A DNA stretch of 64,000 nt, taken from sequence record MN871446.1; one strand, 5' to 3'. A program made the position numbers and the translations under genes. The notes beneath the pieces are model-generated. The model did no database searches, had not been told where the DNA came from, and saw only the letters and a program-made list of their open reading frames with translations. The stretch comes from Klebsiella phage KpLz-2_45. The stretch's first letter is position 1, and each line of letters starts with the position of its first letter. Of the stretch, positions 13,422 to 52,952 are shown piece after piece.

Positions 13422-14738
13422 TTAGTTCAGAGAACGCCCTGTTTGAACGACGACTTCGCCTTCTTTCAGGTAGATTTTCTTGCGTGGCTTACGCAGCGCC
13501 GTTGCCAGCGGGATATCGCTTTTAGGAACGACATCAAACTTCGGTAAACCCGCAGCAGCGCGGGCTTCAACAGCCTCCATCGGAGTCAGCATACGGAAGT
13601 GTAACGGCTCGCCAAGATAGTGACGGCCATCGCGCATCAGTGCTGGTTCGATTTTTGATTTGTCGGTCAGGTTAGTGGTAATAATGATTTTACGCGTGGT
13701 GGCGCTCCCTACACCATCAGTTTCGTTCAGCAATTCTGACATCATCGTGTTACCGTCAGCACGCGGACGTAAGAGGATATCCCCATCTTCCACAATCACG
13801 ATTGGGAAGGTAGGCTCTTTACGGGTTTTCGCATCGTGGCTGTTTGGCAGCGTCAGCATATTACGGGTATTTTCAAAATGCGAACGGTCTTTGAAAAGTT
13901 CATAACGCGCATTTTCACCACTGGAGATTTCAACCCTTTCCATTTTGTCGTCGCTGAACGCGAAGATCTTAGAGATGAATTCTGGGTTTTCGAGGACCTC
14001 AGTTTTCTTCGCGTAGATCGGGAAAAGGTTCAGCGCCACGCAGGCAGCGGAAATGGCGGTCGATTTCCCGGTGCCCGGTTCGCCCATGAGAATCAGAACC
14101 GATTCATCAGACTGAATAAAGTCTTCGATGAGCGCTTCCACACCGCCGTTCAGGAACGGATAGAACTCCTTCTTCGTTTCGCCGCTATGACGCATGACTC
14201 TAGGTTCAAGGTGAGTCATTTCACCCATTGGCGTTTTCCGAATAACGACTTCAGAATAATAAAATTCCTCTTTCGTTTCGTCAGTACGGTGATCGATTTT
14301 GATATTTTCTTGGATCTGAATCAACAGATCGTCGTAGATATCTTTCGCCATCATACCTTCGATAGAGAGGTTAGACCTAATGTCGCTTTGAACGCGGATA
14401 CAGGCGATCGGACGATTGTATTTATCCAGTCCGATGAACTGGTCATCGTCGTGCTGGAAGAAGCGATGTTTTTCCAGGAACGCAGTTAACCACTGCGTGG
14501 ATTCGAAGTAGTATTTATTCTGATCGAACATTCGATCGGTATCGATGTTGAAGATAGGGAGTCGATTTGCAGTCAGGAAATGACGTACCATTTTATTGAC
14601 ACGAATTTCTTCCTCGTTATTGCCTACGAAACGTGCGTAGCTCCCGTAAGCTTCGCCGAACGATTCGAAGATATCATTCAGTGATTTAATAGGTGCGTTA
14701 TCAGAGAGAGATCCAGAGAAAAAAGCGTGCTTGTCCAT
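13422..14738 (-). CDS. AAA+ ATPase (classic AAA/BCS1-like clade) with an N-terminal ~220-aa domain of unknown function
   Basis: Walker A GEPGTGKST, Walker B IVIVEDGD, LLNETDG second region of homology, PALMRDGR arginine finger; AAGGAA SD. Confidence 0.8.
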   Translation of the reverse strand: MDKHAFFSGSLSDNAPIKSLNDIFESFGEAYGSYARFVGNNEEEIRVNKMVRHFLTANRLPIFNIDTDRMFDQNKYYFESTQWLTAFLEKHRFFQHDDDQFIGLDKYNRPIACIRVQSDIRSNLSIEGMMAKDIYDDLLIQIQENIKIDHRTDETKEEFYYSEVVIRKTPMGEMTHLEPRVMRHSGETKKEFYPFLNGGVEALIEDFIQSDESVLILMGEPGTGKSTAISAACVALNLFPIYAKKTEVLENPEFISKIFAFSDDKMERVEISSGENARYELFKDRSHFENTRNMLTLPNSHDAKTRKEPTFPIVIVEDGDILLRPRADGNTMMSELLNETDGVGSATTRKIIITTNLTDKSKIEPALMRDGRHYLGEPLHFRMLTPMEAVEARAAAGLPKFDVVPKSDIPLATALRKPRKKIYLKEGEVVVQTGRSLN

Positions 14739-18721: not shown

Positions 18722-20101
18722 TTAACTTACAGCTTTTAAGACGTTATAACTTACTGCTTCGACAGGTTTAGTGACGTCGTACGTCCGTAGCGCGTTTTCA
18801 TAGGCTACCGGGTCATGTTTGTTCAGCATGAAAAGCGCTTGAACAGATGCACCTGGTAAAGGAGAGAAAGGAAGGTTATTACTAGGTTCCGTATCAGGGA
18901 ATGCCATTTTGAAGAACTGACGAATTTCTTTATCGCCTAATACTTCTACTTCAGCCCTGACGTCTATTCTCCCGTCCCGCAGCAGCGCATCGTCAAGTTT
19001 CTCAGGGCGGTTAGTCGTCAGGAAAACGATAACATCATTCAACCGCAAGACGCCGTCTAACGCGTTGAGGAAATCTGACAAGCTACCGTTTAGGTACTCG
19101 TCCATTGCTTTATCGTCAGAACTTTGTTCTTCAACGACGAAAGGGGTATTTTTGAGTTCTTCTGGGTTTTCCGGTTTGTTTCCCTCTTTTAAGTCAATGA
19201 TAACCTTTTCTTTACTCCGCGCTTTCGTGAACGAATACGTATCAATATCCTCGATAATCACAACCCCGCCAGCTGCTCGTTGGAAAAGCGCTTGGTATTG
19301 TAATCCACCGGCGGGTTTGAGGATATGAATATCGCGCCCTAACGCGGCCGCTAATGCCGAAATCAAACTGCTCTTTCCGGTGCCTGGTAAACCGTATAAC
19401 AACACTGTGAACTTATAAGCCAGTCCTCGTGATTCGTACCAGTCTTTACTCTTATTAAAATCGAAGATAGGGTCGATTAACTCGCGCTGGACTTTATCCG
19501 TAACGACTATGGTTTTAAGGTCTCTTTTCTTCAGTCGGCACAAATAATTCCAACTGTCGGTAGTATTGACAAATGTCCGTATGTTGTCTTTACCCGTGTC
19601 TTTCAGCATAAACTCATCCATCAGGTTTAAGATAGGTTTATGGCTGCGACCGAATTTACTAATGCTAAGACGGTATTTCGAATTACTCGCAGCGTTAGCA
19701 TCAATTTCCGTGATAGAGAAAACAAACACAGTGCCCTTATGAAGAAAGAAATGTGACCCCACACCAGGCCCCACTGCGGCGGACTCTCCATTCACGTCGC
19801 CATCAATAGTTATCGTCCTACTCCAATGGAACCAGCTATTCTTAGCAAACCATTTCAGGAACGCCCCGTATTGTTCGGAGTTATAATTACTCCAGTTGGT
19901 TCCTGAGGTGTTAAAGACCAAACTGGTAACAAATTGACGTTTGACCCATTGTACTACCGCCTTGGGCGTTTTGATTAACCCCCAACCAATCGCCCCTGAT
20001 ACCGCGATAGAGCTCGCGGCGACAATCGCGTTCTGTGCCATGGGGTAGTCTTTAAAGTTAGAAAGAATATGGTCGTAAAATGACATTAGTTGTTCGAGCA
20101 T
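18722..20101 (-). CDS. BCS1-like AAA+ ATPase with N-terminal membrane anchor
   Basis: TM helix at residues ~20-45, then LLYGLPGTGKSS (Walker A), VVIIEDID (Walker B), LLNALDG, TTNRPEKLDDALLRDGR. Organisation is like the BCS1 family. Confidence 0.8.
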   Translation of the reverse strand: MLEQLMSFYDHILSNFKDYPMAQNAIVAASSIAVSGAIGWGLIKTPKAVVQWVKRQFVTSLVFNTSGTNWSNYNSEQYGAFLKWFAKNSWFHWSRTITIDGDVNGESAAVGPGVGSHFFLHKGTVFVFSITEIDANAASNSKYRLSISKFGRSHKPILNLMDEFMLKDTGKDNIRTFVNTTDSWNYLCRLKKRDLKTIVVTDKVQRELIDPIFDFNKSKDWYESRGLAYKFTVLLYGLPGTGKSSLISALAAALGRDIHILKPAGGLQYQALFQRAAGGVVIIEDIDTYSFTKARSKEKVIIDLKEGNKPENPEELKNTPFVVEEQSSDDKAMDEYLNGSLSDFLNALDGVLRLNDVIVFLTTNRPEKLDDALLRDGRIDVRAEVEVLGDKEIRQFFKMAFPDTEPSNNLPFSPLPGASVQALFMLNKHDPVAYENALRTYDVTKPVEAVSYNVLKAVS

Positions 20102-20162: not shown

Positions 20163-20194
20163 AAAAAAAAAAGAGGAGGGAAACCCCTCCTCTT
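20163..20194 (-). terminator. rho-independent terminator
   Basis: AAGAGGAGGG-AAAC-CCCTCCTCTT followed by T10 on the minus strand. Confidence 0.7.
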
Positions 20195-20199
20195 TTAGC

Positions 20200-21175: not shown

Positions 21176-21649
21176 TTAACCCTCGAACCGATAAACAATG
21201 ATTTCAAGATTGGTATCCTTAAAAGCCCGCTCAATGTTTTGGCGGACCATTTCCCAATCACCACCGGCCAGCCCGCATCCGATTAAAGGAAAACCAACTT
21301 TTAACGGCTTCTCTTCCTTTTTGAGAATCGATGCCATTATCTTCATTGCCAGATACTGTGCGCTATAATGCGTTTTATATCCCGGATCTGAATGGTCGTG
21401 GTGAAATTGGCCACAAAGATTGAAACCCCACTGCTCATCCTTTTTGGCGGCCGTTAATTTCCCCAATCTGTTTTTGACAGGGCGTTTGTCAGCAAAGTAA
21501 GGCTCAGCTATCCAGGGAAAAGCTTCGAAGATCTTAACAGCGATGCCACTCTTTGCGATCCCAAAGCAGTTTACTTGGTGGGCAATGACGTCGACTTCCT
21601 TATTAAAGAAAGCCTCAATCAAATCCCCTTTAATTTCGGTATAGGTCAT
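21176..21649 (-). CDS. macro-domain protein of the TARG1/OARD1/DarG-macro type (ADP-ribose or O-acetyl-ADP-ribose hydrolase)
   Basis: 157 aa. KGDLIEAF...DVIAHQVNCFGIAKSGIAVKI and KVGFPLIGCGLAGGDWEMV...LEIIVY match the TARG1-family motifs (KGDLF, PRIGCGLDRL..W). Confidence 0.75.
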   Translation of the reverse strand: MTYTEIKGDLIEAFFNKEVDVIAHQVNCFGIAKSGIAVKIFEAFPWIAEPYFADKRPVKNRLGKLTAAKKDEQWGFNLCGQFHHDHSDPGYKTHYSAQYLAMKIMASILKKEEKPLKVGFPLIGCGLAGGDWEMVRQNIERAFKDTNLEIIVYRFEG

Positions 21650-21667
21650 TGCCCAAACTCTCCGTAT

Positions 21668-22282
21668 TTAATTGATGATAAACTTACAATCTTCGAGATG
21701 GTATTCTCGCCCGCCAAAACAAAGTTTCTTAACGTAGTTAGGACGAGGAAGATTAACGTTGTCCATGTAGGCATTATGGGAAACTAATGACTTGTTAATT
21801 ATTTTCCCTTTGTTGTATTCGACGAGTTTCCCTGGGTGTTCTTGGGAAAAGCCAAACCCTGAGAATTTCAACTTTACATGAGAATGAAAAGAGAGATTTC
21901 GCCAGCCTGGGAATTTCAACCCTTTAACGTGCGCGGCGATAAAACGAATCAGAGCGGTATAAATTTTACCCAGTTCGCTCACTGTCAGTCGTTCTTCTTC
22001 ATCGCCAAAACGGAAAATAATCTTGACGTCATGACCGTCCAGATTACGATGCCAGTCGATGATAAAACGAGAATAATAACCGTACAGTCCATTCTCGGCG
22101 ACAGTGCGGTTGCGATAGGTTTGTGCCGTCTCAGAGTCGTAACGATAGGCGCCTGGCTCCAAAGGCTGCCCGCGTCTGAAACCAATAAACTGTGCGAGCT
22201 GTACCGCTTGGATTAAAGTCAGGTGCACGGCGGTACCGAACTTGTTAGTGATAATAAAAATGGGACTTGAAGACGTATGCAT
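21668..22282 (-). CDS. hypothetical protein
   Basis: 204 aa, immediately downstream of the macro gene. Confidence 0.5.
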   Translation of the reverse strand: MHTSSSPIFIITNKFGTAVHLTLIQAVQLAQFIGFRRGQPLEPGAYRYDSETAQTYRNRTVAENGLYGYYSRFIIDWHRNLDGHDVKIIFRFGDEEERLTVSELGKIYTALIRFIAAHVKGLKFPGWRNLSFHSHVKLKFSGFGFSQEHPGKLVEYNKGKIINKSLVSHNAYMDNVNLPRPNYVKKLCFGGREYHLEDCKFIIN

Positions 22283-23627: not shown

Positions 23628-23682
23628 TAGTATCCCCCTTATTAAACACAAGGTGAGAGGAAAGACCCCTCACCTTTTTACC

Positions 23683-23997
23683 TTATTTTTGCCTGATACG
23701 GAGTTCGAGTTTAATCGATAAATCGTCACCGTCAGTTTCATCAAATGAGAGACTCCGCCAGATTCCTATTTCTCCGCCGTACGCGTAGAAATAAATCTCC
23801 CTTTCGAAAATAACGAAGAGCTTCTCAATAATCGCTGTTTCTTCATTCGTAAAAGCAAATGACGGAGAAAGCGATTCCGAACGATGTTTAGGTAGTCCCT
23901 GTAACAATTCTACGGAATCATTAAACTCCGTCGAAGTAACACCGGAGTGACGAGCGTGACCAACTACCAGACACGTTTCTAAAACGCACGTTGTCAT
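23683..23997 (-). CDS. hypothetical protein
   Basis: 104 aa; ATGA-coupled to the ThyA-family gene. Confidence 0.45.
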   Translation of the reverse strand: MTTCVLETCLVVGHARHSGVTSTEFNDSVELLQGLPKHRSESLSPSFAFTNEETAIIEKLFVIFEREIYFYAYGGEIGIWRSLSFDETDGDDLSIKLELRIRQK

Positions 23998-25373
23998 ACC
24001 GACACCTGTAATTTAATGGCTGGGTGATGCTTGTACTCAGTGAAGACGAAATCTTCATAGGTGAGTTCAAACAACCCTTTCTTCGGCATCTCTGAGTTAT
24101 AGTAGTGCTCAGAGCGAACGTAACACTCAACCGGTTTGTAAGGCTCGCGAGTTAACTGTAACTTCGCTTCCTCTAACTGATTATTGTAGATATGGACGTT
24201 AGTCAGATTACCAACCAGCTTATTGGGCGCCATACCGAGCTCATGAGCAAATGACAGCAACATGAAGGCGTAGAAAGCCTGGTTAAAGGGCTCACCGGTC
24301 ATTGTGTCACAGCTCCGCATACTGTATTTCAAACTCAGCCACTGCGTCGGTACGTGGTTCTCCGTCAACCATTCCGCTTTACGCTCAGGGGACATTTTCG
24401 GCTGGTCACAATGTTCTTCGCTGTAGCAGTCCGACATATGGTCTTCCCAAAGATCCTGGAAGTACGGGTTAGCATTGTTCCTGCACCATTTTAACCGCTC
24501 GCTCAATGTCATCTCTTCTACGTAGAACTCTACCAGGAAATGACACGGGGTAAGGCATGGTTTACCCTCCACAATATTTTCCTGCGGCGTAACCTTAACG
24601 GTCTTAGTGCGTGGTACACCATGACTTGCTAAGAACTCTTCGCAGTTATCGGTCTTGCCATGATATTCCAGGCGCGGCCAGAAAATAGCATAAAGGTCCG
24701 GACTGTGAGTTTTTAAATGTTCCCACATCTCGTCACTACTGAGAGTAACTTCTTTCGTTTCTTCCGGCATCCAAAGCGGGTTCCACGCCGAGATCAGGAT
24801 ACGACGCGATTCCGGATTGTTCCGTAGGAGATCGAGCGCATACGCGATTTGGTCAACGCCCTTCTTCTCTAATGGATTCTCGGAGAAGTTTCGCCATGCT
24901 GACCCGTAAGGGGCATTAAGGTCACCCGCTTTGTTCACGGTGACCTGGCGAGTACGCGGTACACCTTTTTCATCTAGCCAACGATGGCCGTCTTCAACAG
25001 GCTGAATGGAGATCCCTTTGCTGTAAAACTCGATGTGAGCTTCTTTGTTGTTCTCTTCAAGCCACTTCAGGCGCTCGTAGTTTTCCAGAGGAACTTCTTT
25101 CACCACGTCAGCTTCTAAACGCCACGGGTCCCAGAACTTGACATTATTCTCCACCATGGTATCGAGGTGGAGTTCCCCGTTTAACATTGCCTTGTACTCA
25201 AACCACGCAGATTTACGCGGAACGAACTTCGTGGTGAGCAGAGGGAATTCCCCGGTCGAAAGGTCGTACTTCAGTTTCGCATCAAAAATAGAAATCGTCC
25301 CCGTTCCCGTCCTGTCTCCTCGCTGACGACCGGTTTCGATAATTTCACGTAGTAGATCGAGATACTGTTTCAC
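23994..25373 (-). CDS. thymidylate-synthase-family enzyme (dUMP-specific; thymidylate synthase or dUMP hydroxymethylase) with three inserted ~55-aa repeat modules; GTG start
   Basis: MKQYLDLLREII..DRTGTGT..F..PLLTTK, RRILISAWNP, TPCHFLVEFYV (catalytic Cys), SMRSCDTMTGEPFNQAFYAF (Asn specifying uracil). 459 aa versus ~264 for E. coli ThyA. Confidence 0.85.
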   Translation of the reverse strand: MKQYLDLLREIIETGRQRGDRTGTGTISIFDAKLKYDLSTGEFPLLTTKFVPRKSAWFEYKAMLNGELHLDTMVENNVKFWDPWRLEADVVKEVPLENYERLKWLEENNKEAHIEFYSKGISIQPVEDGHRWLDEKGVPRTRQVTVNKAGDLNAPYGSAWRNFSENPLEKKGVDQIAYALDLLRNNPESRRILISAWNPLWMPEETKEVTLSSDEMWEHLKTHSPDLYAIFWPRLEYHGKTDNCEEFLASHGVPRTKTVKVTPQENIVEGKPCLTPCHFLVEFYVEEMTLSERLKWCRNNANPYFQDLWEDHMSDCYSEEHCDQPKMSPERKAEWLTENHVPTQWLSLKYSMRSCDTMTGEPFNQAFYAFMLLSFAHELGMAPNKLVGNLTNVHIYNNQLEEAKLQLTREPYKPVECYVRSEHYYNSEMPKKGLFELTYEDFVFTEYKHHPAIKLQVSV

Positions 25374-27781: not shown

Positions 27782-28323
27782 TTTGTAAAAACCCAATAAA
27801 CGTCGTAAAATGGAATAGCATGGATTCCCGAGGGGAGGTTGTCGATCTCTTCGATATCTTTCATATCGAGTAAATTGACAACTAACCCGGTGGATAATAA
27901 TCGCTTGAGGCTATACGCCACCGCACCAAGCGGAATTTCGAAGGTAATCGCCTTTTGACATTTGAAATGACTGACCAGTTTGCGCGGATTATCCGCTAAC
28001 CGTTCGAGATAATCTTTATACGTTTCCCCGTCGTGACCACGCAGCGGCCACTGCCAGATAATTCCGTCTGCGGCTACTATCGCCTCCCCTCGAAAACGAT
28101 AAGGATTTTGATATTGCTCCCATTTGAGATACCCCGGTTGGTACATAGAGCCGTGATCAAGGATCTCCAATTCTTTCCCTGCTATGGCTTCACGAATCAT
28201 TTCTGCAAGGGCCGGTATGAGAACAGTTTCCCCTGCGGCATTTTTACCAAGAGCGACCTTCTCTCCTTCCACTAAACCGTAGACGTCAGCCGCGTAAGCG
28301 CCCCGTTCAAACTTAAATTTCAT
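27778..28323 (-). CDS. hypothetical protein, translationally coupled downstream of Tpt1
   Basis: 181 aa; ATGA overlap with Tpt1 stop; Gly-rich KVALGKNAAGETV segment. Confidence 0.5.
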   Translation of the reverse strand: MKFKFERGAYAADVYGLVEGEKVALGKNAAGETVLIPALAEMIREAIAGKELEILDHGSMYQPGYLKWEQYQNPYRFRGEAIVAADGIIWQWPLRGHDGETYKDYLERLADNPRKLVSHFKCQKAITFEIPLGAVAYSLKRLLSTGLVVNLLDMKDIEEIDNLPSGIHAIPFYDVYWVFTK

Positions 28324-28883
28324 TCTTTTTTCTCCTCTACTTTAAAACACCCAACTGGAACATGTTCGACCAGCCAAACCCCGTTCAACGCTTTGTAGAA
28401 CACGTAGCCGCGTTCCAATAGTTTCTGGGTATCAATACTCAAGACTACGAGCGACCCTTTCTTAGCGTACCGTAATCCCACTAACCGCGCGGTCTCGATG
28501 TGATCGGTTAAATGGACAAACTGGCGGGATTGCGGATTGAGTCCATTCTCAAAAATACTCTCTAAATTCCCCGATGCAGTGCCGTGGTAAAGTACCTCAG
28601 GCGGTACCTCTTCATTGAAGGCCATTTCATTTACCGGGAATGAATGCCCCTGTACAGCACGGATAGAAGAAAGATCATCGGATAACCCAAATCGTTTCTT
28701 ATCGTCCGTCTCTACAACGTGCATAATTTCCTGTAACGTAACTACCTTATTCTGTTCAGAGAATGCTGCAATCAGGTCGTCGAGTCTGACATAGCCAAGT
28801 TCATCAGGCGTTAATTTCAAAGCCTGAGGCCGATGGCGTAAAATGAAACACAGTGTTTTTGATAACTTAATTGGATCGTTCAA
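28320..28883 (-). CDS. kptA: RNA 2'-phosphotransferase Tpt1/KptA family (NAD+-dependent)
   Basis: 187 aa. KLSKTLCFILRHRPQALKL..D..GYV.LDDLI, DKKRF, IRAVQGHS, LYHGTASGNLESI, VHLT, VGLRYAKKGSLVVLSID, NGVWL align with E. coli KptA along the full length. TTG start with an AAGGG SD. Confidence 0.85.
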   Translation of the reverse strand: MNDPIKLSKTLCFILRHRPQALKLTPDELGYVRLDDLIAAFSEQNKVVTLQEIMHVVETDDKKRFGLSDDLSSIRAVQGHSFPVNEMAFNEEVPPEVLYHGTASGNLESIFENGLNPQSRQFVHLTDHIETARLVGLRYAKKGSLVVLSIDTQKLLERGYVFYKALNGVWLVEHVPVGCFKVEEKKE

Positions 28884-28887
28884 ATTA

Positions 28888-29415
28888 TTACCCTTGGAGC
28901 GTATAACCTGCGCCGTAAACTTCGATCAATTGATCCCAAATAGGATCTACCCAAACGGGTACTTTGAACCCAAGATGTTCTTCTTCACGGTATAACCAGC
29001 CTTTCTTCTCGGTGAAAGAGAAGAAGTTATCTCTGCTCTTTTTAAGGTTATCGTAATAGGCAAACATTTTGTGGTCGGTCGCTTCTGCTTTATATTTCGC
29101 ATAAAGCCATTTACGGTATTGCGCTTCGATTTCAGTATATTCCACTGGCTCATACCCAGAAAGAATCGTCACACCACCCGTTGAATTCTCCGGGTAGCGC
29201 TGGAGTCCATCCCAAATAGCGGGTAGGGGGATAAAATCCCCTAATTCCCAAATATCGAACATGGGTGTCAGAACAGAGCGGGGTTCGTCCGGGCAAACAC
29301 TGAACGTTGCATTGCGGAACGCAGCTTCTTTATTTTCAGCGGCGATTAATAACACTGTCGCTTCTTTAGATTCAGGGAGATCGTAAAACTTCTCACTCGC
29401 CAGAAACAGTTTCAT
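28888..29415 (-). CDS. hypothetical protein between Tpt1 and HD hydrolase
   Basis: 175 aa; AGGGGAA SD. Confidence 0.5.
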   Translation of the reverse strand: MKLFLASEKFYDLPESKEATVLLIAAENKEAAFRNATFSVCPDEPRSVLTPMFDIWELGDFIPLPAIWDGLQRYPENSTGGVTILSGYEPVEYTEIEAQYRKWLYAKYKAEATDHKMFAYYDNLKKSRDNFFSFTEKKGWLYREEEHLGFKVPVWVDPIWDQLIEVYGAGYTLQG

Positions 29416-30121
29416 TGTTATTCCCCTGTGCAGTTAGGCCAAAATAATGACAACTACCTTGCGCAACAACTCGGTATTTTTTCGCGTGTGCCGCGCCTAA
29501 CGCAGTGTAAAACTTGAGATTGCTGATGTAGTCAATGTTTCTTTTCGTAAACTCTTCTCGTGACTGACCGAAGCGAATACCGATCTCTTGGTAAAGTCCG
29601 TTGAAGATGTCTTCATCGAGATAAGACATCGCGTAGAGTTGATCGGCGTCCCGGATAATGCCGAATAAATAACGCATACCGGTACCGCCGGGATACTGCG
29701 GAAAAGGGTCGTCGAAGTTATAATGCGTGAATCCGACTAATAAAGTGATCATCGCTTTGTTAGCCGTAGGAAACTCACGCCAGAAACCTAATTGCTCAAG
29801 TTGCTGTAAAGTGTACTCAATATTCTTCCAGTCATCTTTCTCTCCTAAGTGACAGAAATCGTGAACTAGTCCTGCGATGACGGCTGATTCAAAATCCTTC
29901 TCAGAGAGCCCGTAATTTGATGGCTCAAGATTGGAAAGAAGATAACCTGTCAGTACACCTACGCCAATTAAATGGCGTGTGGAGTGGTACGGTCGCCCTG
30001 CGTTGTGTTCTTCTACCCAGCGAATGATCCCATTGTAGTCATTGAAGAAACAACGTCCCCAGATCGGGTTCATTTCCTTCAGTCCGTAATTATCCCAGAA
30101 GACTGAGAACTCACTGTGCAT
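29393..30121 (-). CDS. HD-domain metal-dependent phosphohydrolase
   Basis: 242 aa; H..H (YHSTRHLIGV), HD (AGLVHDFCH) and a downstream D (IIRDADQLY) are the characteristic HD signature. Confidence 0.7.
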   Translation of the reverse strand: MHSEFSVFWDNYGLKEMNPIWGRCFFNDYNGIIRWVEEHNAGRPYHSTRHLIGVGVLTGYLLSNLEPSNYGLSEKDFESAVIAGLVHDFCHLGEKDDWKNIEYTLQQLEQLGFWREFPTANKAMITLLVGFTHYNFDDPFPQYPGGTGMRYLFGIIRDADQLYAMSYLDEDIFNGLYQEIGIRFGQSREEFTKRNIDYISNLKFYTALGAAHAKKYRVVAQGSCHYFGLTAQGNNNETVSGE

Positions 30122-37227: not shown

Positions 37228-37917
37228 TTATTTGTTGGTTTTGGTGATATACCACTTCCAAAGGCCGTAGAAAGCATTCATCAAGAATACTGCCCACTGT
37301 GCCACCTGCGCCCATGAACCCGGTTGATTAAGCGCCGGGATCACCCACAGATAAATCGTGACGCAGTTGATAATGATCCAGAGAATCCATTGTTCTGGCT
37401 GCTGCTTGATCATCATCCACATGGCGATGAGCGATGCGACTAAGCAGAACGCGTCTAATGCAGGAAACGGATCCTGCGTAGTTTTCAGGTATTCGGTCAG
37501 GCCATACCAGAAGATAACCCCAACAACCAGATAAGTTATCACGTCACGTAAAGTGATCGTTTTAACCGCTACGTCAGCTTTGGCTGGAGTTTTGCCCAGG
37601 TCTTTCGTCCAGTAATAAATACCGATAAACTGCATGGGAAGGTAAATAGCGTTCAACGCCGCATTGGCATAAAGGCCGGTATTGTACGAAACAATACCGT
37701 AGGTAATTACGCCAATCGTCCCCCAGTAATAATTAGAGACGCGACCCTTCGCCACCAGAATCACGCAGACGACGTTAGTCAGCGCTGCCGTGAATTCTAA
37801 CGGACTGGCTTGCCAGCTCCCTAATCCGACGACGATTAACGCTACGATCAGCCAAAAGTATTCGACTTTCTTCCAGTGCGCAAAGTCAGTGAAAGTTTTC
37901 ATTACCAATGAGTTCAT
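37228..37917 (-). CDS. pnuC: nicotinamide riboside transporter PnuC
   Basis: 229 aa. Collinear with E. coli PnuC: multi-TM profile, WxxVE, NVVCVILVAKG, IYYW, ILWIIIN-type conserved stretches. AAGGA SD. Confidence 0.85.
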   Translation of the reverse strand: MNSLVMKTFTDFAHWKKVEYFWLIVALIVVGLGSWQASPLEFTAALTNVVCVILVAKGRVSNYYWGTIGVITYGIVSYNTGLYANAALNAIYLPMQFIGIYYWTKDLGKTPAKADVAVKTITLRDVITYLVVGVIFWYGLTEYLKTTQDPFPALDAFCLVASLIAMWMMIKQQPEQWILWIIINCVTIYLWVIPALNQPGSWAQVAQWAVFLMNAFYGLWKWYITKTNK

Positions 37918-38061: not shown

Positions 38062-39273
38062 TCATCCACCCCAATCAGCGGGGTTCTGATGAGAACCAGC
38101 CTCGATGCTTTCTACCATACTCCAATCTTTATCAAAGTTACCACCGCTGGCAGCAGGAGGGAACTTATTTGGAATTTCTGGAGCGCTCTGGCCGGCAGTG
38201 CCGTTACCGGATAACAAGTTATCAACCGCTTCACGTGATTGATCTAAACGACCTTTGTAAGAGTCCCCTTTAATGAATACAGTGCGCCCCCATGGTGTTT
38301 GGTTTTTAAATTCCCAAAGCATTTGTTGGAAGAGACTCTCTGTTTTCTCGCGGTCAGGATTCAGCCGCAGACCATCATCGACCCATGGTACTTCCGGCGA
38401 AAGAATCAACACGAGATCGTAATGCTCTTCAGCCGCGATAGCAGAAACAATAGGGTTAGGTTTACCCTCGTACAGCCGATGGTAATATTCCGTAATGAAG
38501 GCGTTCGTATCGATGAAACAGAGTCGATTAGAAGTACGTAATGCTTCCTCCTCCAGCTCTTTGTGACGATACGCAATCAACGGGTAGTCAGAACTACGGA
38601 GAGTCGCTTCCGAACCCGCTAAGACCGTTTCACAGTACGTACGGCCGTACTCTTCAACCCAGCTGGTATTGTAGAGTTTGGCGAGGTTCTTGACGAGGGA
38701 ACTTTTCCCAGAACTCTCAACGCCTAATACGACCACCCGCAAACAATAATCTTTACGGACAATGCTCGGGAGATATTCCCAATGGTCGTAAAGGTTTTCA
38801 CGGATCATCGTGGCGGAGATGGGGACGCGGGTACGGTTACTGTCAACGATAACGTGTTCTACAAAACCGAGGTGCGTTTTGTATTTTTCATCGTAATCCA
38901 GCTCGCTACTGAAAATAGCAATGCTCTGCGCCTGACTGTGATTAGCTGCCAGTCTACCTGCCTCGTTGAAAATCTTAGCGCCGAGCAGAGCAGCGTATTC
39001 TTTCCAGCCGTTCGGGTATTCCGGTACAGAAGCCTCATCAATGAAATCGATCGTGACGTGCTCTGTATCCGCGTAAGTCTGTTGCAGCCAGCGCAGACGA
39101 TTCTTGAAATTGAGTACCTTTTGGTCTCGTGGCGATTGTTTATCCAGCCAACGTTGGTCGTGGGAAAGAATGACGAGGACATGCTTAGACTGCACAGCAG
39201 CCTCTGTGATTAAGTTGATGTGCCCCAACGTAAGGGGTGCGAATTTACCGATTACTACGCCTAAGTCAAACAT
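38062..39273 (-). CDS. nadR: NadR-type bifunctional NMN adenylyltransferase / ribosylnicotinamide kinase. It lacks the N-terminal HTH repressor domain and has a ~50-aa C-terminal Gly/Ser-rich extension.
   Basis: GKFAPLTLGHINLI (NMNAT H-x-G-H), LRWLQQT, YPNGW, ISATMIRENLYDHWEYLP, VVVLGVESSGKSSLVKNLA (RNK P-loop), RLCFIDTNAFIT, YDLVLILSPEVPWVDDGLR match E. coli NadR throughout. Confidence 0.9.
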   Translation of the reverse strand: MFDLGVVIGKFAPLTLGHINLITEAAVQSKHVLVILSHDQRWLDKQSPRDQKVLNFKNRLRWLQQTYADTEHVTIDFIDEASVPEYPNGWKEYAALLGAKIFNEAGRLAANHSQAQSIAIFSSELDYDEKYKTHLGFVEHVIVDSNRTRVPISATMIRENLYDHWEYLPSIVRKDYCLRVVVLGVESSGKSSLVKNLAKLYNTSWVEEYGRTYCETVLAGSEATLRSSDYPLIAYRHKELEEEALRTSNRLCFIDTNAFITEYYHRLYEGKPNPIVSAIAAEEHYDLVLILSPEVPWVDDGLRLNPDREKTESLFQQMLWEFKNQTPWGRTVFIKGDSYKGRLDQSREAVDNLLSGNGTAGQSAPEIPNKFPPAASGGNFDKDWSMVESIEAGSHQNPADWGG

Positions 39274-44749: not shown

Positions 44750-45337
44750 TTATTTAACGCCTGATGAACCAAAGCCGTTAGTTCCGCGTTCTGACGATGC
44801 GCTGAACGCGGTCACCTCTTTCAAGTCCAGGTGCCAGATCGGTACCACGATCAGTTGCGCGATACGGTCACCGGGGTTGATAGTGAACGGAACGTCAGAA
44901 CGGTTCCAGGCGGGGATACCGATGATATTTTGGTAGTCGCTGTCGATAATGCCTGTCAGGTTACCCAAAACAATTCCGTTCTTGTACCCTAACCCGGAGC
45001 GCGGATGGGTATTCAACATGAAGTTCGGGTTATTCAGGTGAATAGCAACACCGGAGGAAATCATCTTGCATTCTCCCGGATTCAGTACAACAGGTTCATC
45101 GATTGCCGCCCGCAGATCGACCGCAGCAGAACCAGGGGTCGCGTAGTCCAGTTTACCCCATTCGCTCTCATAACGCGAGTCATGGTAGATAATTTCTGCT
45201 GGGATGAACTGACGCGGATCCGGGTCCGCGATACGAAAACGCTGAACGGTATCAACGGTAGATCCCAGCTGGGAGTGGTGTACGATAGTCCCTGTTTCGG
45301 TCTTAAAATAATTCAGGATTTCTTTTGGCTCAGACAT
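44750..45337 (-). CDS. dut: dUTP diphosphatase (dUTPase) with ~45-aa N-terminal extension
   Basis: All five Dut motifs are present: ATPGSAAVDLRA, PRSGLGYKNGIVLGN, GIIDSDYQN, PGDRIAQLI, ERGTNGFGSSG. Near-collinear with E. coli Dut. Confidence 0.9.
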   Translation of the reverse strand: MSEPKEILNYFKTETGTIVHHSQLGSTVDTVQRFRIADPDPRQFIPAEIIYHDSRYESEWGKLDYATPGSAAVDLRAAIDEPVVLNPGECKMISSGVAIHLNNPNFMLNTHPRSGLGYKNGIVLGNLTGIIDSDYQNIIGIPAWNRSDVPFTINPGDRIAQLIVVPIWHLDLKEVTAFSASSERGTNGFGSSGVK

Positions 45338-45437
45338 TTTTAAACTCTCTTAGGTTATTACGGTGATTAATCAAACAAAGTCGGTGTGCCGTTGAAAAAT
45401 ATAGCCGGGAGAGAGCCGTAGCTCTCTCCCTAAACTA

Positions 45438-47507
45438 TTAAGCGGTTTCGTAATCAGTAATCTGACGACTGGTGTAAATGAACCGGTAAGGGTTAGGTTT
45501 GCTGTACTGTGCTACCGCACCGATCGGCGTATTGTAGAGATGAATCTCGCCGCTTCCATACGTTTGGAAGCTTGACTTCACGCCGTTGTCGTAACTACAG
45601 CTGTAGAAGTAAGATGCCCCTCTACCATAAACGTTAGAACCTACCGTATCTTTCCCGACGACGTACAACGCACCTTTAATACTGTCGGTGCTTTGGTTGC
45701 CGCTGGCGATCGTTTCGAGGTGAGCCACGAAGGTATTCAACCCGTACTCTTCGATAGGGTAACCGTCTACATTTCGGTAAGTCGATTTGAATCGAATCCC
45801 GGTTACACCCGGCCCCACTAATGACCCACGTTTTTGTCCATTACCCGAACCGAAGTGATTCTCAGATACGCAACTGACTTCGAGGAACGTACCTTGTACT
45901 CCCAACGGAATTGTCTGACGGTCACTGCCGTGATAGGTACCGTAAGTCCCGCCGTTACTGAAATGGCAATCTTGAGAGAAGACCTCAGCCCCGTAGTTGT
46001 TCAGACACGCCGTTGAACAGGTTCCGGTAACCTCCACGCCCTTCAACCATAAAGACGGTTTCGCGTTGATCGCCACAGACTCAGCGCCCAAACCAATGTC
46101 GGTGTCAGAGACTTTCACATTGGAAACGTAAATTGTGCTGTTCCCAGTGAAATTCAGTCCCGTGTTCTTCACGACAACTTTAACGTTACTGTCAGGCTTA
46201 CGGCTGTTCGACGTCTGGACAATGATCGCAGTGGACGTCACGCAGTAGCTTCCTACTGTGGCCACTACCGCAGCAGGACCGTCTACTTCCACTAAGCGTT
46301 TAGGTAACCCGTTACTGTCTAACGTGCCGTAGTCAAAGACACCGGCGATATTTAGACCTGTTGCTAAATATTGATAGACAACGTTAGAGTCGGAGTAAAG
46401 CGACCAGTTAGTGATCCCCAGATCGCCCGTAAAGGTCGGTACGGTGCCACCGGTGCCATAGATACCGATCTTACGGTCATTCACTGTACGTTGAACGAAG
46501 AACGGTTTAGAGCCCTTCACGACGATACTGGTGGCAATAGGCGATTTATCAATTGCAGCGTTAAGAGTTTTCAGTGGGTTAGCTTCACTTCCATCATTCC
46601 CGTCTGCACCGAGATCAGAGTCAACGTAGTAGACCATCCCGTAGGGGAAGTACCATTCGCTCAGATCAAAGTCGGTTGAGAATCGCATCAGTCCCTGGGC
46701 CAACGCTCCCTCGTAAGGGAAGACCGCAGCGAGTGGATCAAAAACCGCAGGGAGTTTAGGAACTACCGGCAAACAGTTATTTGCACTGTCGTAACTGGTC
46801 TCGTAAGAAGGACCGGTCAGTTCCAGTAATTGCCCAGCGCGGAAACGCGCCACTGTATTACCCGATTGTAGCGAACTTTGAGTCATTGACAACGATCCGT
46901 CATTCCCTAAAATAATCCCAGTATTCGCGGCAGTCGGTAAGAAACTCCCTTGTTTCCCAACCACAAAGTTTTCGCCGTTAATTCGGCTCTTCCCAGAGAG
47001 CGTAAAGGTTTTACCGTCTGACTGATAAAGTTGATACGGGGTGCGGAGCCAATCGCGAATCGTGGTTTCTTGACCGAAATAAACTTCGAGTGTCCCGATG
47101 TACATCAATGAAGTAGCAACGGTTTTCAGTGTAAAGACACCGATTGTGGTCGTCAACGCAGTGGGAATGAAGACTTCCTGTTTGATATCGGTCATGTCCA
47201 GCTGTAGGCCGTACAACGTATTCAAACGGGTAACGATATCTTCGGCCGTGAATATTCCGGCAGTAGACATGAACACCACGGGCTCGGTCAGGACTCTATT
47301 GAGATTGACCCGGTTGTAATCAAAGACTGCTGAATCACGGTAGTCACCTGCATCGGTCGCTACCGCGGTGATACGCGTGTTAAAATTCCCGGTCGTCAGG
47401 GCAGTGAGGTTGATGAAATCCAAATCGCTTTCTTTAAAAAAGGCACCGTACTGCGTGTTCAGCTGACGAACCAGAAGCGCTTTACTTTTTAACGAGAAAT
47501 CTGTCAT
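45438..47507 (-). CDS. tail fibre / tailspike protein (receptor-binding protein), paralog of 47524-49584
   Basis: 689 aa; Gly/Ser/Thr/Asn-rich beta-rich composition; shared SRKPDSNV motif and similar N-terminus with the next gene. Confidence 0.7.
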   Translation of the reverse strand: MTDFSLKSKALLVRQLNTQYGAFFKESDLDFINLTALTTGNFNTRITAVATDAGDYRDSAVFDYNRVNLNRVLTEPVVFMSTAGIFTAEDIVTRLNTLYGLQLDMTDIKQEVFIPTALTTTIGVFTLKTVATSLMYIGTLEVYFGQETTIRDWLRTPYQLYQSDGKTFTLSGKSRINGENFVVGKQGSFLPTAANTGIILGNDGSLSMTQSSLQSGNTVARFRAGQLLELTGPSYETSYDSANNCLPVVPKLPAVFDPLAAVFPYEGALAQGLMRFSTDFDLSEWYFPYGMVYYVDSDLGADGNDGSEANPLKTLNAAIDKSPIATSIVVKGSKPFFVQRTVNDRKIGIYGTGGTVPTFTGDLGITNWSLYSDSNVVYQYLATGLNIAGVFDYGTLDSNGLPKRLVEVDGPAAVVATVGSYCVTSTAIIVQTSNSRKPDSNVKVVVKNTGLNFTGNSTIYVSNVKVSDTDIGLGAESVAINAKPSLWLKGVEVTGTCSTACLNNYGAEVFSQDCHFSNGGTYGTYHGSDRQTIPLGVQGTFLEVSCVSENHFGSGNGQKRGSLVGPGVTGIRFKSTYRNVDGYPIEEYGLNTFVAHLETIASGNQSTDSIKGALYVVGKDTVGSNVYGRGASYFYSCSYDNGVKSSFQTYGSGEIHLYNTPIGAVAQYSKPNPYRFIYTSRQITDYETA

Positions 47508-47523
47508 TTTAAATTCGCCCCAG

Positions 47524-49584: not shown

Positions 49585-49658
49585 TATACGGGGCGGTTAA
49601 AGTACGAGTCATAGAAAGGTTTTGGGACAAAAAAGAAAAGCGCGAGAAGGAGACAACA

Positions 49659-49686
49659 GGAGAAGAGAGCAGACGCTCTCTTCTCC
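49659..49686 (-). terminator. terminator-like hairpin after the acidic-protein gene
   Basis: GGAGAAGAGAGC-AGAC-GCTCTCTTCTCC 12-bp stem. Confidence 0.5.
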
Positions 49687-49692
49687 TGGGAA

Positions 49693-50100
49693 TTATTCAT
49701 CGTCTTCGAAGTCTTCCGGTACAGATTGGTAATCGTCATCGTCGTAGTCGTCCCAATCCTCTTCCTCGCTGTCGTCAAGTTCATCGATGATCTTGTTGTC
49801 AGCTTCTTCCATGAACCAGCCTTTCTCAGCCAGTGTAGCAGCAAAGACGTTGTTCCCTTCTTCGATCAGCGTTTCGGTCACCGCCCCTGAGTCATTCTCA
49901 GTAACGGCAACCACCGTGAGTTCTTCGCCGTCAGCGGTCTTATCGTTGACATCCGTTTTATAGAGTTCAAACCCTAACTGTTCGTTGACACTTTCTAATG
50001 TTTCAGAAAGGTCGAGTGGGTCAACCGGACGGCCGTCGTTGTCGATGACTTCGAAAGTCTCTTCGTCGGTACTGAATTTCAGGATAGTGCGATTTGTCAT
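49693..50100 (-). CDS. highly acidic protein (C-terminal DDSEEEDWDDYDDDDYQSVPEDFEDDE)
   Basis: 135 aa, >30% Asp+Glu; ATGA-coupled; own terminator hairpin downstream. Confidence 0.5.
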   Translation of the reverse strand: MTNRTILKFSTDEETFEVIDNDGRPVDPLDLSETLESVNEQLGFELYKTDVNDKTADGEELTVVAVTENDSGAVTETLIEEGNNVFAATLAEKGWFMEEADNKIIDELDDSEEEDWDDYDDDDYQSVPEDFEDDE

Positions 50101-50426
50101 TTCCAGTCCTCCTGGGTGCGTTTAATAAAGAGTGCGTCAACGACAGTCAGATCGACAGGGATCAGCTCAGTCGCCGCATGGGGTTGTATAAAGTAAAGCG
50201 TCAGAGTTGTGTCGTTGGTGAGTTTTCCAACCACGTTGTAAAGAACACCGTTGTACATTCCGGATGTGCCGGTTTTCAGATTGAGTGCAACAATGAGTTG
50301 TCGTCCCAGTAAATCGCAGTTGTTACCAGGGTAAGTGTCGCGGAGTTTAAAGAGTACTCGACCCACCTTTTCTTGCCATTCTTTCATTAACACATTGAGA
50401 ATCGTTTCTCTTGTAATAACCTGCAT
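50097..50426 (-). CDS. hypothetical protein (ATG at 50426 with AAGGAAG SD; track extends to a TTG at 50534)
   Basis: Shorter start leaves a plausible 120-nt divergent intergenic region. Confidence 0.45.
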   Translation of the reverse strand: MQVITRETILNVLMKEWQEKVGRVLFKLRDTYPGNNCDLLGRQLIVALNLKTGTSGMYNGVLYNVVGKLTNDTTLTLYFIQPHAATELIPVDLTVVDALFIKRTQEDWK

Positions 50427-50547
50427 CTTGTCTTCCTTATTGGTCGTTATCATAGAAAGTTTACTTAAAAATAGATTTGGGGTAGTCAAGAAAAACAGGC
50501 GGTATATTGCTATGTTAACACCTAAAATGAACAAGGCATAAGTAGCG

Positions 50548-50760: not shown

Positions 50761-50769
50761 AAGAACACA

Positions 50770-50800
50770 GAAAGGAAAGGGGTTAGTCCCCTTTCCTTTC
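50770..50800. terminator. bidirectional terminator between convergent genes
   Basis: GAAAGGAAAGGGG-TTAGT-CCCCTTTCCTTTC 13-bp stem between the plus gene 50548-50760 and the minus gene 50800-51045. Confidence 0.6.
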
Positions 50801-51206: not shown

Positions 51207-51215
51207 GAATCGAGA

Positions 51216-52943: not shown

Positions 52944-52952
52944 CTAAACCTC

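What the first reader, a model, noticed from the sequence alone, without database searches (positions are those of the whole stretch)
21176..21649. TARG1/DarG-like macro domain as a stand-alone phage gene
The protein shows the KGDL..VxxxN..G.A.GIA N-terminal motif and the PxIGCGLxxxxW...I.VY C-terminal motif. Both are characteristic of the TARG1/OARD1/DarG macro clade, which hydrolyses ADP-ribose from Glu residues, O-acetyl-ADP-ribose and ADP-ribosyl-thymidine on DNA. It is not of the MacroD/YmdB type. In bacteria this clade is the antitoxin half of DarTG. A phage carrying the antitoxin domain alone would be a natural anti-DarT factor.
Basis: partly seen in the sequence, partly recalled or inferred. 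Interest (0 to 1): 0.75.

Follow-up and report, generated by a model that had tools for sequence, protein, structure and literature searches.

The report
Phage stand-alone anti-DarT macrodomain (AdfM-like)
This 157-residue gene of a 300-kb Klebsiella jumbo phage is a real stand-alone ADP-ribose-removing macrodomain, related to phage T4 Tk.4 (AdfM), which protects T4 from the bacterial DNA-ADP-ribosylating defence DarTG2, so it is a new member of a kind described in 2025-2026 rather than a new kind.

Summary
The ORF at 21176-21649 (minus strand, 157 aa) is real, under strong purifying selection, and carries the quoted motifs. By sequence and predicted structure it is a macrodomain of the ALC1-like class (TARG1, DarG, SCO6735, BT1257), not the MacroD/YmdB type.

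The TARG1 catalytic dyad is absent: Lys84 aligns to Gln81 and Asp125 to Ala128. This does not refute an anti-DarT role. Gln81 is invariant in the family. The same Gln, the GCGLAGG loop and the five-residue-longer "mobile loop" define the SCO6735/BT1257 subclass. SCO6735 removes ADP-ribose from DarT-modified thymidine, and its Gln85Ala mutant is dead.

The closest characterised relative is T4 Tk.4 (29% identity, also Gln-type). A 2025 preprint found it to be the one T4 gene needed on DarTG2 hosts and named it AdfM. PhiKZ gp104, also called AdfM, is a different, Lys-type DarG2-like branch.

The family occurs in 2,579 phage records. An RNA 2'-phosphotransferase (KptA) lies 6.7 kb away, but KptA occurs in only 96 phage records.

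This is a new member of a known kind, of modest interest. The function of this protein is inferred, not tested.

The parts
21176..21649 (-). Complete coding sequence (157 aa plus stop) of a stand-alone ALC1-like macrodomain, a putative DNA ADP-ribosylglycohydrolase of the AdfM / T4 Tk.4 type.
   Evidence: ORF. PHROG 335 at 1e-41. PDB hits. AF2 model at pLDDT 92.7 and Foldseek matches. Homology to T4 Tk.4. dN/dS of 0.01-0.06.
21658..21663 (-). Shine-Dalgarno-like GGAGAG, 8-10 nt upstream of the ATG.
   Evidence: Read directly from the sequence. The reverse complement of 21650-21669 is AAATACGGAGAGTTTGGGCA, followed by ATG.
21569..21580 (-). Codons for His24-Gln25-Val26-Asn27 (AHQVN). His24 and Asn27 correspond to SCO6735 His24 and Asn27, the conserved macrodomain Asn.
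   Evidence: Asn27 is invariant and His24 at least 90% conserved in 61-63 family members. Alignments to SCO6735. Mutational data for SCO6735 and DarG in PMC9411070.
21407..21409 (-). Codon for Gln81, the residue at the position of the catalytic Lys of TARG1 (K84) and DarG (K80) and of the essential Gln85 of SCO6735.
   Evidence: Alignments. Invariant in the family. The Q85A mutant of SCO6735 is inactive (PMC9411070).
21368..21406 (-). Codons for Phe82-His94, the 13-residue 'mobile loop'. It is five residues longer than in TARG1, DarG and T4 Tk.4, as in SCO6735 and BT1257.
   Evidence: Loop lengths and alignments. The long loop is described as the hallmark of the SCO6735 subclass in PMC9411070.
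21260..21280 (-). Codons for Gly124-Gly130 (GCGLAGG), the phosphate-binding loop. Ala128 sits at the position of TARG1 Asp125.
   Evidence: G124, C125, G126 and G129 are invariant. GCGLAGG occurs in 59 of 63 family members. It is identical in SCO6735 and BT1257.
20164..20196 (-). Terminator-like hairpin (12-13 bp stem followed by a T-run). It probably ends the minus-strand transcription unit that contains the macrodomain gene.
   Evidence: Consensus scan. Pattern match only; function was not tested.

Best explanation
The gene encodes a small, stand-alone macrodomain ADP-ribosylglycohydrolase that acts as an orphan 'antitoxin' against DarT2-type defence.

Proposed mechanism:
1. A DarTG2-carrying host releases DarT2 during infection.
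2. DarT2 ADP-ribosylates thymidines in single-stranded phage DNA and blocks replication.
3. The phage enzyme binds the ADP-ribose in its macrodomain cleft, formed by Asn27, the G35 loop and the GCGLAGG phosphate loop.
4. It hydrolyses the thymidine-ribose bond and restores the DNA.

Catalysis would be of the SCO6735 kind. Gln81 positions the substrate and water network in place of the Lys of TARG1 and DarG, and the longer mobile loop clamps the DNA.

Shown here: the fold, the class, the active-site make-up, homology to T4 Tk.4/AdfM and to SCO6735, purifying selection, and the absence of a DarT-binding domain.

Inferred: the substrate (ADP-ribosyl-thymidine DNA) and the biological role (anti-DarTG2).
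For: - ALC1-like macrodomain by sequence and by predicted structure.
- The best protein-family matches in defence and annotation libraries are DarG models, over the macro part only: PADLOC DarG 7.9e-12 and NCBIfam DarG 1.4e-11.
- The nearest characterised protein is T4 Tk.4: BLASTP E = 2e-14, E = 5e-21 for the RB3 orthologue, and 118 bits against a family HMM built without T4-like sequences.
- T4 tk.4 is the only T4 gene conditionally essential on DarTG2 hosts, and its knockout is sensitised (bioRxiv 10.1101/2025.11.20.689424).
- The query shares Gln81, GCGLAGG and the 13-residue mobile loop with SCO6735 and BT1257.
- SCO6735 removes DarT-made ADP-ribose from thymidine, rescues E. coli from DarT, and loses activity when Gln85 is mutated to Ala (PMC9411070).
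- Gln81, Asn27 and the glycine-rich loop are invariant in 61-63 homologues.
- dN/dS is 0.01-0.06.
- The family is in 2,579 phage records, mostly large virulent phages, as expected of a widely useful counter-defence gene.
- Orphan antitoxin-like enzymes are an established phage strategy: AdfN (PMC11825919) and PhiKZ AdfM (PMC13309987).
Against: - No experiment exists on this protein or on any member of its phage group.
- Identity to T4 Tk.4 and to SCO6735 is only 28-32%, a distance at which macrodomain substrate preference can change.
- For T4 Tk.4 only genetics is published, in a preprint. Its hydrolase activity on DNA is assumed there too.
- SCO6735 residues Lys34 and Lys89, which contact DNA, are not conserved here (Ser34, with Lys33 adjacent, and Asp85). 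The protein is near neutral (pI 7.7 vs 9.9 for SCO6735). The electropositive DNA groove proposed for SCO6735 may therefore be weaker.
- I did not show that Klebsiella hosts of this phage carry DarTG2. A DarG search of plasmids found Escherichia and Citrobacter, but Klebsiella was not among the 10 most frequent genera or the 25 rows shown.
- SCO6735 and TARG1 also act on Glu/Asp-linked protein ADP-ribose, so DNA need not be the only substrate.
Confidence: 0.6

Rival explanations
1. Clean-up enzyme of an RNA-repair pathway. The phage's KptA/Tpt1 removes RNA 2'-phosphates using NAD+ and produces ADP-ribose 1''-2'' cyclic phosphate. After ring opening, the macrodomain would dephosphorylate ADP-ribose 1''-phosphate, like yeast Poa1p. 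This is what the database label 'phosphatase' implies.
For: - A bona fide KptA gene (Pfam PTS_2-RNA, 3e-43) lies at 28320-28883 on the same strand, 6.7 kb away. A 'phosphohydrolase' (phrog_16069) lies two genes further on.
- Poa1p belongs to the same ALC1-like class and is detectably related: 2.7e-13 with the family profile and Foldseek probability 1.0.
- The KptA-2H-Macro pathway in large phages is proposed in PMC9503650.
Against: - KptA homologues occur in only 96 phage records against 2,579 for this macrodomain family.
- T4 has Tk.4 but carries no annotated KptA next to tk.4. Erwinia accounts for 61 KptA-positive records but fewer than 40 macro-positive ones.
- About a dozen unrelated ORFs separate the two genes.
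- Poa1p scores lowest of the ALC1-like reference enzymes against the family HMM (49 bits vs 73-118).
- Poa1p lacks both the Gln and the GCGLAGG loop; it has FGGSS and INSGIFG.
Confidence: 0.12
2. Eraser of ADP-ribose on proteins or RNA rather than on DNA. It would reverse Glu/Asp-linked protein ADP-ribosylation, or ADP-ribosylated RNA such as phosphate-end capping (which KptA/TRPT1-type enzymes can catalyse) or marks made by RNA-targeting defence ARTs. The aim would be to counter other ART-based defences or to tune the phage's own transferases.
For: - SCO6735 and TARG1, the closest solved relatives, also hydrolyse Glu/Asp-linked protein ADP-ribose (PMC9411070).
- The phage encodes an ART-fold enzyme, KptA.
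- An RNA ADP-ribosylating defence exists (CmdTAC, PMC11618068, title and abstract). Authors have speculated that phage erasers may cover such systems (PMC11825919).
Against: - SCO6735 strongly prefers DNA over protein in competition assays.
- The only phenotype known for a family member (T4 Tk.4) is against DarTG2.
- No other ART was seen among the neighbours scanned.
Confidence: 0.12
3. Binder or hydrolase of small ADP-ribose derivatives. It would deacetylate O-acetyl-ADP-ribose, or sequester or degrade ADP-ribose-based immune signals such as the Thoeris signals gcADPR and His-ADPR. This would fit a wider phage NAD+/ADP-ribose toolkit.
For: - Source annotations of some homologues read 'O-acetyl-ADP-ribose deacetylase'.
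- Macrodomains bind His-ADPR in Thoeris ThsA (bioRxiv 10.64898/2026.06.04.730250).
- The window also encodes PnuC and a NadR-like NMN adenylyltransferase for NAD+ salvage.
- Low-molecular-weight substrates for phage macrodomains are proposed in PMC9503650.
Against: - No member of this subclass has been shown to act on such signals.
- The 'deacetylase' names are automatic COG labels.
- No YmdB-type model matched the query in NCBIfam, and no MacroD/YmdB structure is among the top 50 Foldseek matches.
- The invariant Gln and the long DNA-clamping loop are features tied to DNA-ADP-ribose hydrolysis in SCO6735.
Confidence: 0.05

Closest known systems
T4 Tk.4 = AdfM (anti-DarT factor macrodomain), bioRxiv 10.1101/2025.11.20.689424
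   Same: - Stand-alone phage macrodomain of about 155 aa.
- Homologous over the full length: 29% identity with E = 2e-14, and 118 bits against the family HMM.
- Gln at the Lys84/Lys80 position, the conserved AH..N motif, and a glycine-rich phosphate loop.
- Same PHROG family and the same 'phosphatase / A1pp' annotation.
   Different: - T4 Tk.4 has the short 8-residue loop after the Gln and the loop sequence IGAGIGKG. The query has a 13-residue loop and GCGLAGG.
- The genomic neighbourhood differs: tk and vs in T4, ThyA and a BCS1-like ATPase here.
- Anti-DarTG2 activity was shown genetically for T4 only.
Streptomyces coelicolor SCO6735 (PDB 5E3B) and Bacteroides BT1257 (PDB 2FG1/2AFC)
   Same: - Best solved-structure matches by profile: 2.7e-22 for BT1257 and 6e-20 for SCO6735.
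- Gln in place of the catalytic Lys.
- Identical GCGLAGG loop.
- A mobile loop five residues longer than in TARG1 and DarG (PMC9411070).
- Both are stand-alone single-domain proteins, to judge from the solved chains (about 150-180 aa).
   Different: - They are cellular, not viral, proteins.
- Identity is only about 25-28%.
- SCO6735's DNA-contacting Lys34 and Lys89 are not conserved, and the phage protein is much less basic (pI 7.7 vs 9.9).
DarG2 antitoxin macrodomain (T. aquaticus 5M31/5M3E, M. tuberculosis 5M3I)
   Same: - Same ALC1-like fold: Foldseek E of about 1e-9 and TM-score of about 0.76.
- It is the only family hit in PADLOC and NCBIfam.
- Same presumed substrate, ADP-ribosyl-thymidine in ssDNA.
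   Different: - The catalytic Lys80 is replaced by Gln81, and there is no FPTK motif.
- There is no C-terminal DarT-binding domain and no adjacent darT.
- It scores 44 bits against an equivalog cut-off of 250.
PhiKZ gp104 = AdfM of chimalliviruses (PMC13309987)
   Same: A stand-alone phage macrodomain used as an orphan anti-DarT2 antitoxin, shown biochemically to remove DarT2-made ADP-ribose from DNA.
   Different: - It belongs to a different branch. It is DarG2-like with the FPTK lysine, and scores 133-138 bits on DarG models against 43-44 for the query.
- It is only 22% identical to the query.
- It scores lowest of all references against the query's family HMM (43 bits).
- It is imported into a phage nucleus. 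Whether this Klebsiella phage forms a nucleus was not examined.
Human TARG1/OARD1 (PDB 4J5R/4J5S)
   Same: - Top Foldseek match: E = 3e-10, TM-score 0.77-0.85, 27-28% identity.
- Shared KGDL start, PxIGCGL loop and C-terminal I.VY strand.
   Different: - The Lys84/Asp125 dyad is absent: Gln81 and Ala128.
- TARG1 has the short loop.
Yeast Poa1p, ADP-ribose 1''-phosphate phosphatase (PDB 6LFQ)
   Same: Same class of macrodomain. It is the source of the 'phosphatase / A1pp' label carried by the phage family.
   Different: - It lacks the Gln and the GCGLAGG loop and has large insertions.
- It is the weakest of the ALC1-like enzymes against the family HMM.

Membership tests
Macrodomain superfamily (Pfam PF01661) | Three-layer alpha/beta/alpha fold with a central mixed sheet and an ADP-ribose cleft. 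| tested here: met
   AF2 model at pLDDT 92.7 with alternating strands and helices. There are 102 PDB matches with E <= 0.001, and all of the top 50 are macrodomains.
Macrodomain superfamily (Pfam PF01661) | Score at or above Pfam's gathering threshold. | tested here: not met
   20 bits against a cut-off of 22, E = 7e-4. The divergent ALC1-like class is poorly covered by the model. Many homologues do pass (PF01661), and profile searches are unambiguous.
Macrodomain superfamily (Pfam PF01661) | Conserved Asn in the first loop and glycine-rich phosphate-binding loops. | tested here: met
   N27, G35, G124, G126 and G129 are invariant in 61-63 homologues.
ALC1-like class (TARG1 / DarG / SCO6735 / Poa1p) | Closest sequence and structural neighbours are members of this class rather than MacroD, PARG or other classes. 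| tested here: met
   No MacroD/YmdB structure is among the top 50 Foldseek matches, and the query gives no YmdB-type NCBIfam hit.
TARG1/OARD1 | Catalytic Lys84-Asp125 dyad. | tested here: not met
   Lys84 aligns with Gln81 and Asp125 with Ala128, in HMMER and in two MAFFT alignments.
DarG2 antitoxin | Catalytic Lys80 within the FPTK(K/R)HW motif. | tested here: not met
   The query has NLCGQFHH at this position.
DarG2 antitoxin | C-terminal DarT-binding domain, giving a full-length match to DarG models. | tested here: not met
   The 157-aa protein matches only positions 9-144 of 329 in PADLOC DarG. It scores 44 bits against the NCBIfam equivalog cut-off of 250.
DarG2 antitoxin | Encoded next to a darT toxin gene. 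| tested here: not met
   Ten neighbouring ORFs gave no PADLOC hit and no relevant Pfam or PHROG hit.
SCO6735/BT1257 subclass of ALC1-like macrodomains | Gln at the position of the TARG1/DarG catalytic Lys. | tested here: met
   Gln81 aligns with Gln85 and is invariant in the family.
SCO6735/BT1257 subclass of ALC1-like macrodomains | Mobile loop five residues longer than in TARG1 and DarG (PMC9411070). | tested here: met
   13 residues lie between Gln81 and Tyr95, as in SCO6735, against 8 in T4 Tk.4 and a similarly short loop in TARG1 and DarG.
SCO6735/BT1257 subclass of ALC1-like macrodomains | Hydrolysis of ADP-ribosyl-thymidine on ssDNA. | not testable with these tools
   Needs a gel-shift or AMP-Glo assay with a DarT2-modified or synthetic TCT(ADPr)C oligonucleotide.
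AdfM, T4 Tk.4 type | Full-length sequence homology to T4 Tk.4. | tested here: met
   29% identity with E = 2e-14. 32% with E = 5e-21 to RB3 Tk.4. 118 bits and E = 2e-37 against the family HMM. Same PHROG 335.
AdfM, T4 Tk.4 type | Required for phage growth on DarTG2-expressing hosts. | not testable with these tools
   Shown only for T4 (bioRxiv 10.1101/2025.11.20.689424).
AdfM, PhiKZ gp104 type (DarG2-like) | Close similarity to DarG2 macrodomains, including the FPTK lysine. | tested here: not met
   gp104 scores 133-138 bits on DarG models and 1e-24 against 5M3I. The query scores 43-44 bits and 1e-4. The two proteins are 22% identical.
Poa1p-type ADP-ribose 1''-phosphate phosphatase | Poa1p-like active-site loops, and functional coupling to KptA/Tpt1. 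| tested here: inconclusive
   The loops differ. KptA is present in this genome 6.7 kb away but absent from at least 96% of phages carrying the family. Enzymatic activity was not tested.

The most novel reading that the evidence does not exclude
The macrodomain may not be a single-purpose anti-DarT2 factor. It could be the eraser arm of a phage NAD+/ADP-ribose toolkit spread over about 18 kb of one strand: PnuC, NadR-like NMN adenylyltransferase, KptA and the macrodomain. In that case the Gln-type, long-loop enzyme would have broad specificity. It would remove ADP-ribose from DNA, from RNA ends and from proteins, and so counter several ART-based defences at once or recycle ADP-ribose while the phage rebuilds NAD+.
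Probability: 0.12. Interest if true: 0.55.

Novelty: new member of a known kind. Interest (0 to 1): 0.3.

Why it matters
It gives a testable function, anti-DarTG2 counter-defence, to a gene labelled only 'phosphatase' or 'hypothetical protein' in a group of 300-kb Klebsiella jumbo phages that are of interest for therapy.

It also shows that the phage 'AdfM' label covers two distinct macrodomain branches. One is Gln-type, related to T4 Tk.4 and SCO6735. The other is Lys-type, related to PhiKZ gp104 and DarG2.

The Gln-type branch is present in about 5% of deposited phage genomes (2,579 of 50,697). DNA ADP-ribosylation therefore appears to be a major selective pressure on large virulent phages.

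For the biochemistry of macrodomains, these phage proteins are a large natural sample of the lysine-free mechanism proposed for SCO6735.

Tried and rejected
1. **Membership in TARG1 or DarG proper.** Rejected, because the catalytic Lys/Asp, the DarT-binding domain and a darT neighbour are all missing.
2. **Identity with the chimallivirus AdfM (PhiKZ gp104).** Rejected. The two are 22% identical, and gp104 is Lys-type and DarG2-like.
3. **Functional coupling to the nearby KptA.** Considered because of the shared strand and NAD+ chemistry, then down-weighted. KptA is in 96 phage records against 2,579 for the macrodomain, and the two genes are separated by about a dozen ORFs.
4. **A partner protein among the neighbours.** Pfam, PHROG and PADLOC scans of the flanking ORFs gave nothing informative. 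A 51%-identical homologue on a 264-kb metagenomic contig merely shows the same synteny (ThyA ... macro ... BCS1-like ATPase), so it is not independent evidence.
5. **DarG2 on Klebsiella plasmids, as evidence of selective pressure.** 122 plasmids carry DarG-like genes, including Escherichia and Citrobacter. Klebsiella was not among the 10 most frequent genera or the 25 rows shown. Chromosomal DarTG2 in Klebsiella was not examined.
6. **Literature on this phage group.** Searching 'FBKp24' found no papers. The Kp24 genome paper mentions no macro or NAD genes.
7. **Promoter scan.** Sigma-70-like sites occur at chance level (12 found against 11.9 expected).
8. **First structure job.** It was rerun without them.
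Full report
**1. Observation**

The window carries an ATG-initiated ORF of 157 codons at 21176-21649 on the minus strand. A GGAG Shine-Dalgarno lies 10 nt upstream. The ORF sits in a dense run of minus-strand genes. A strong terminator-like hairpin at 20164-20196 probably ends the transcription unit.

The ORF has the same GC content as the window (44.3%). Against orthologues in three related phages it gives dN/dS of 0.01-0.06. It is therefore a native, functional gene.

**2. Where it comes from**

The surrounding 15 kb is 94-98% identical to a group of roughly 300-kb Klebsiella pneumoniae jumbo phages: KpXa_1, KpLz_1_41, MJ359 and LPKP23, with FBKp24 and Centimanus more distant. In those records the gene is annotated 'phosphatase' or 'hypothetical protein'.

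**3. What the protein is**

- The Pfam Macro hit is just below threshold (20 vs 22 bits), but PHROG 335 matches at 1e-41.
- phmmer against PDB sequences finds SCO6735 (6e-6), TARG1 (1.3e-5), BT1257 (2.5e-5) and DarG macrodomains (1e-4 and 3e-3).
- A profile of 61 homologues raises these to BT1257 2.7e-22, SCO6735 6e-20, TARG1 8e-16, DarG 4.5e-15 and Poa1p 2.7e-13.
- An AlphaFold2 model (pLDDT 92.7) has TARG1, DarG, BT1257, Poa1p and SCO6735 as its best solved-structure matches. No MacroD/YmdB structure is in the top 50.

**4. Active site**

TARG1 Lys84 and DarG Lys80 align with Gln81, and TARG1 Asp125 aligns with Ala128. This holds in HMMER pairwise alignments and in two independent MAFFT alignments.

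Gln81 is invariant in 61-63 family members, as are G8, N27, G35, A37, N77, P121, G124, C125, G126 and G129. GCGLAGG occurs in 59 of 63 members.

The same Gln and the same GCGLAGG loop are found in SCO6735 and BT1257. The query also has 13 residues between the Gln and the next conserved Tyr, as SCO6735 does. T4 Tk.4 has 8, and TARG1 and DarG have comparably short loops.

Hlousek-Kasun et al. (PMC9411070) report the following for SCO6735:
- It lacks the Lys and the Asp.
- Gln85 occupies the Lys position, and the Q85A mutant is inactive.
- The five-residue-longer 'mobile loop' is the hallmark of this subclass.
- It removes DarT-made ADP-ribose from thymidine faster than DarG or TARG1.
- It does not act on dG-ADPr.
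- It rescues E. coli and S. coelicolor from DarT.

The missing dyad rules out membership in TARG1 or DarG proper. It does not rule out DarG-like activity.

**5. Closest characterised relative**

tblastn finds the family in 2,579 of 50,697 phage records. These include T4-like phages, where the hit is gene tk.4 beside vs.

The query is 29% identical to T4 Tk.4 (E = 2e-14) and 32% identical to RB3 Tk.4 (E = 5e-21). An HMM of the query's family built without T4-like sequences scores the references as follows:

| Reference | Bits |
|---|---|
| T4 Tk.4 | 118 |
| BT1257 | 82 |
| SCO6735 | 73 |
| TARG1 | 60 |
| DarG | 56 |
| Poa1p | 49 |
| PhiKZ gp104 | 43 |

T4 Tk.4 also has the Gln (FNLYTQF).

A 2025 preprint (10.1101/2025.11.20.689424) screened a T4 transposon library on a DarTG2 host. 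It found tk.4 as the single significant hit, showed that a clean deletion sensitises T4, and named the gene adfM.

A second protein with the same name, PhiKZ gp104, was shown biochemically to remove DarT2-made ADP-ribose from DNA (PMC13309987). It belongs to another branch. It carries the DarG FPTK lysine, scores 133-138 bits on DarG models against 43-44 for the query, hits DarG at 1e-24, and is 22% identical to the query.

Orphan NADAR antitoxins against DarTG1 (AdfN) are also established (PMC11825919).

**6. Mechanism proposed**

By homology, the protein is an orphan antitoxin-like DNA ADP-ribosylglycohydrolase. It would remove the ADP-ribose that DarT2 puts on thymidines of single-stranded phage DNA, using the lysine-free, Gln-dependent chemistry proposed for SCO6735.

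- Shown: fold, class, active-site composition, homology and selection.
- Inferred: substrate and role.
- Caveats: 28-32% identity to the characterised proteins; the DNA-contacting Lys34 and Lys89 of SCO6735 are not conserved; the protein is near neutral (pI 7.7 vs 9.9); and I have no evidence that the hosts carry DarTG2.

**7. Rivals**

A KptA/Tpt1 RNA 2'-phosphotransferase (Pfam 3e-43) lies at 28320-28883 on the same strand, with a 'phosphohydrolase' nearby. This suggests a Poa1p-like role in clearing ADP-ribose 1''-phosphate (pathway reviewed in PMC9503650).

Against this:
- KptA is in only 96 phage records.
- T4 has Tk.4 with no annotated KptA next to it.
- About a dozen ORFs intervene.
- Poa1p is the poorest of the class against the family HMM and lacks the Gln and GCGLAGG.

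Erasure of protein or RNA ADP-ribose, or action on small ADP-ribose derivatives, cannot be excluded. SCO6735 also acts on Glu/Asp-linked protein ADP-ribose, though it strongly prefers DNA.

**8. Novelty and verdict**

The idea that a phage carries the macrodomain alone as an anti-DarT factor is right, but it has been published for homologues in 2025-2026. This gene is a new member of that kind, from a phage group where it had not been discussed.

The points of residual interest are:
- its SCO6735-like long loop, which is shared by only part of the phage family;
- the split of 'AdfM' into Gln-type and Lys-type branches;
- the neighbouring NAD+/ADP-ribose genes PnuC, NadR-like and KptA.

Interest is 0.3.

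Noticed in passing
window 28320-28883 (-) and 29393-30121 (-): There is a KptA/Tpt1 RNA 2'-phosphotransferase (Pfam PTS_2-RNA, 3e-43), with a 'phosphohydrolase' (phrog_16069, 2e-21) two genes upstream. KptA homologues occur in only 96 phage records, mostly Erwinia and Dickeya jumbo phages and Clostridioides phages. This may be an NAD+-dependent RNA-repair module.
   Followed up: partly
window 37228-37917 (-) and 38062-39273 (-): A PnuC nicotinamide-riboside/NMN transporter (Pfam 3e-43) lies near a NadR-like bifunctional protein with a cytidylyltransferase-like NMN adenylyltransferase domain and an AAA_28 kinase domain. This looks like a phage-encoded NAD+ salvage route, plausibly against NAD+-depleting defences.
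   Followed up: partly
window 23994-25373 (-); L007 106-2122: The thymidylate-synthase homologue is 459 aa against a 266-position Pfam profile, so it carries large insertions. In a more distant relative (a 264-kb metagenomic contig) the ThyA gene is split in two by a NUMOD3/I-TevI-like homing endonuclease gene. I did not test whether the enzyme makes dTMP or a modified pyrimidine.
   Followed up: no
window 18722-20101 (-) and 13422-14738 (-): There are two AAA+ ATPases. The first has a BCS1 N-terminal domain, which is unusual in phages. It is syntenic with the macrodomain gene in the distant relative L007.
   Followed up: no
window 44750-45337 (-): A dUTPase / dCTP-deaminase-like protein (Pfam dUTPase, 7.5e-27) is annotated 'dCTP deaminase' in phage MJ359.
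   Followed up: no
window 20164-20196 (-) and 23650-23676 (-): Two long G+C-rich hairpins lie on the coding strand. The first has a clear T-run. Together they bracket an eight-gene block that includes the macrodomain gene, so they probably mark transcription-unit boundaries.
   Followed up: no
literature and alignments: Two non-orthologous phage macrodomains have both been named AdfM. T4 Tk.4 is Gln-type and related to SCO6735. PhiKZ gp104 is Lys-type and DarG2-like. This invites annotation mix-ups.
   Followed up: yes
window about 45400-64000 (-), by correspondence with PQ182779.1 213000-232000: The right-hand third of the window encodes several large tail, tail-fibre, tail-spike and virion structural proteins, according to the annotation of the 95%-identical phage MJ359. 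This is consistent with the multi-depolymerase branched fibres described for phage Kp24.
   Followed up: no
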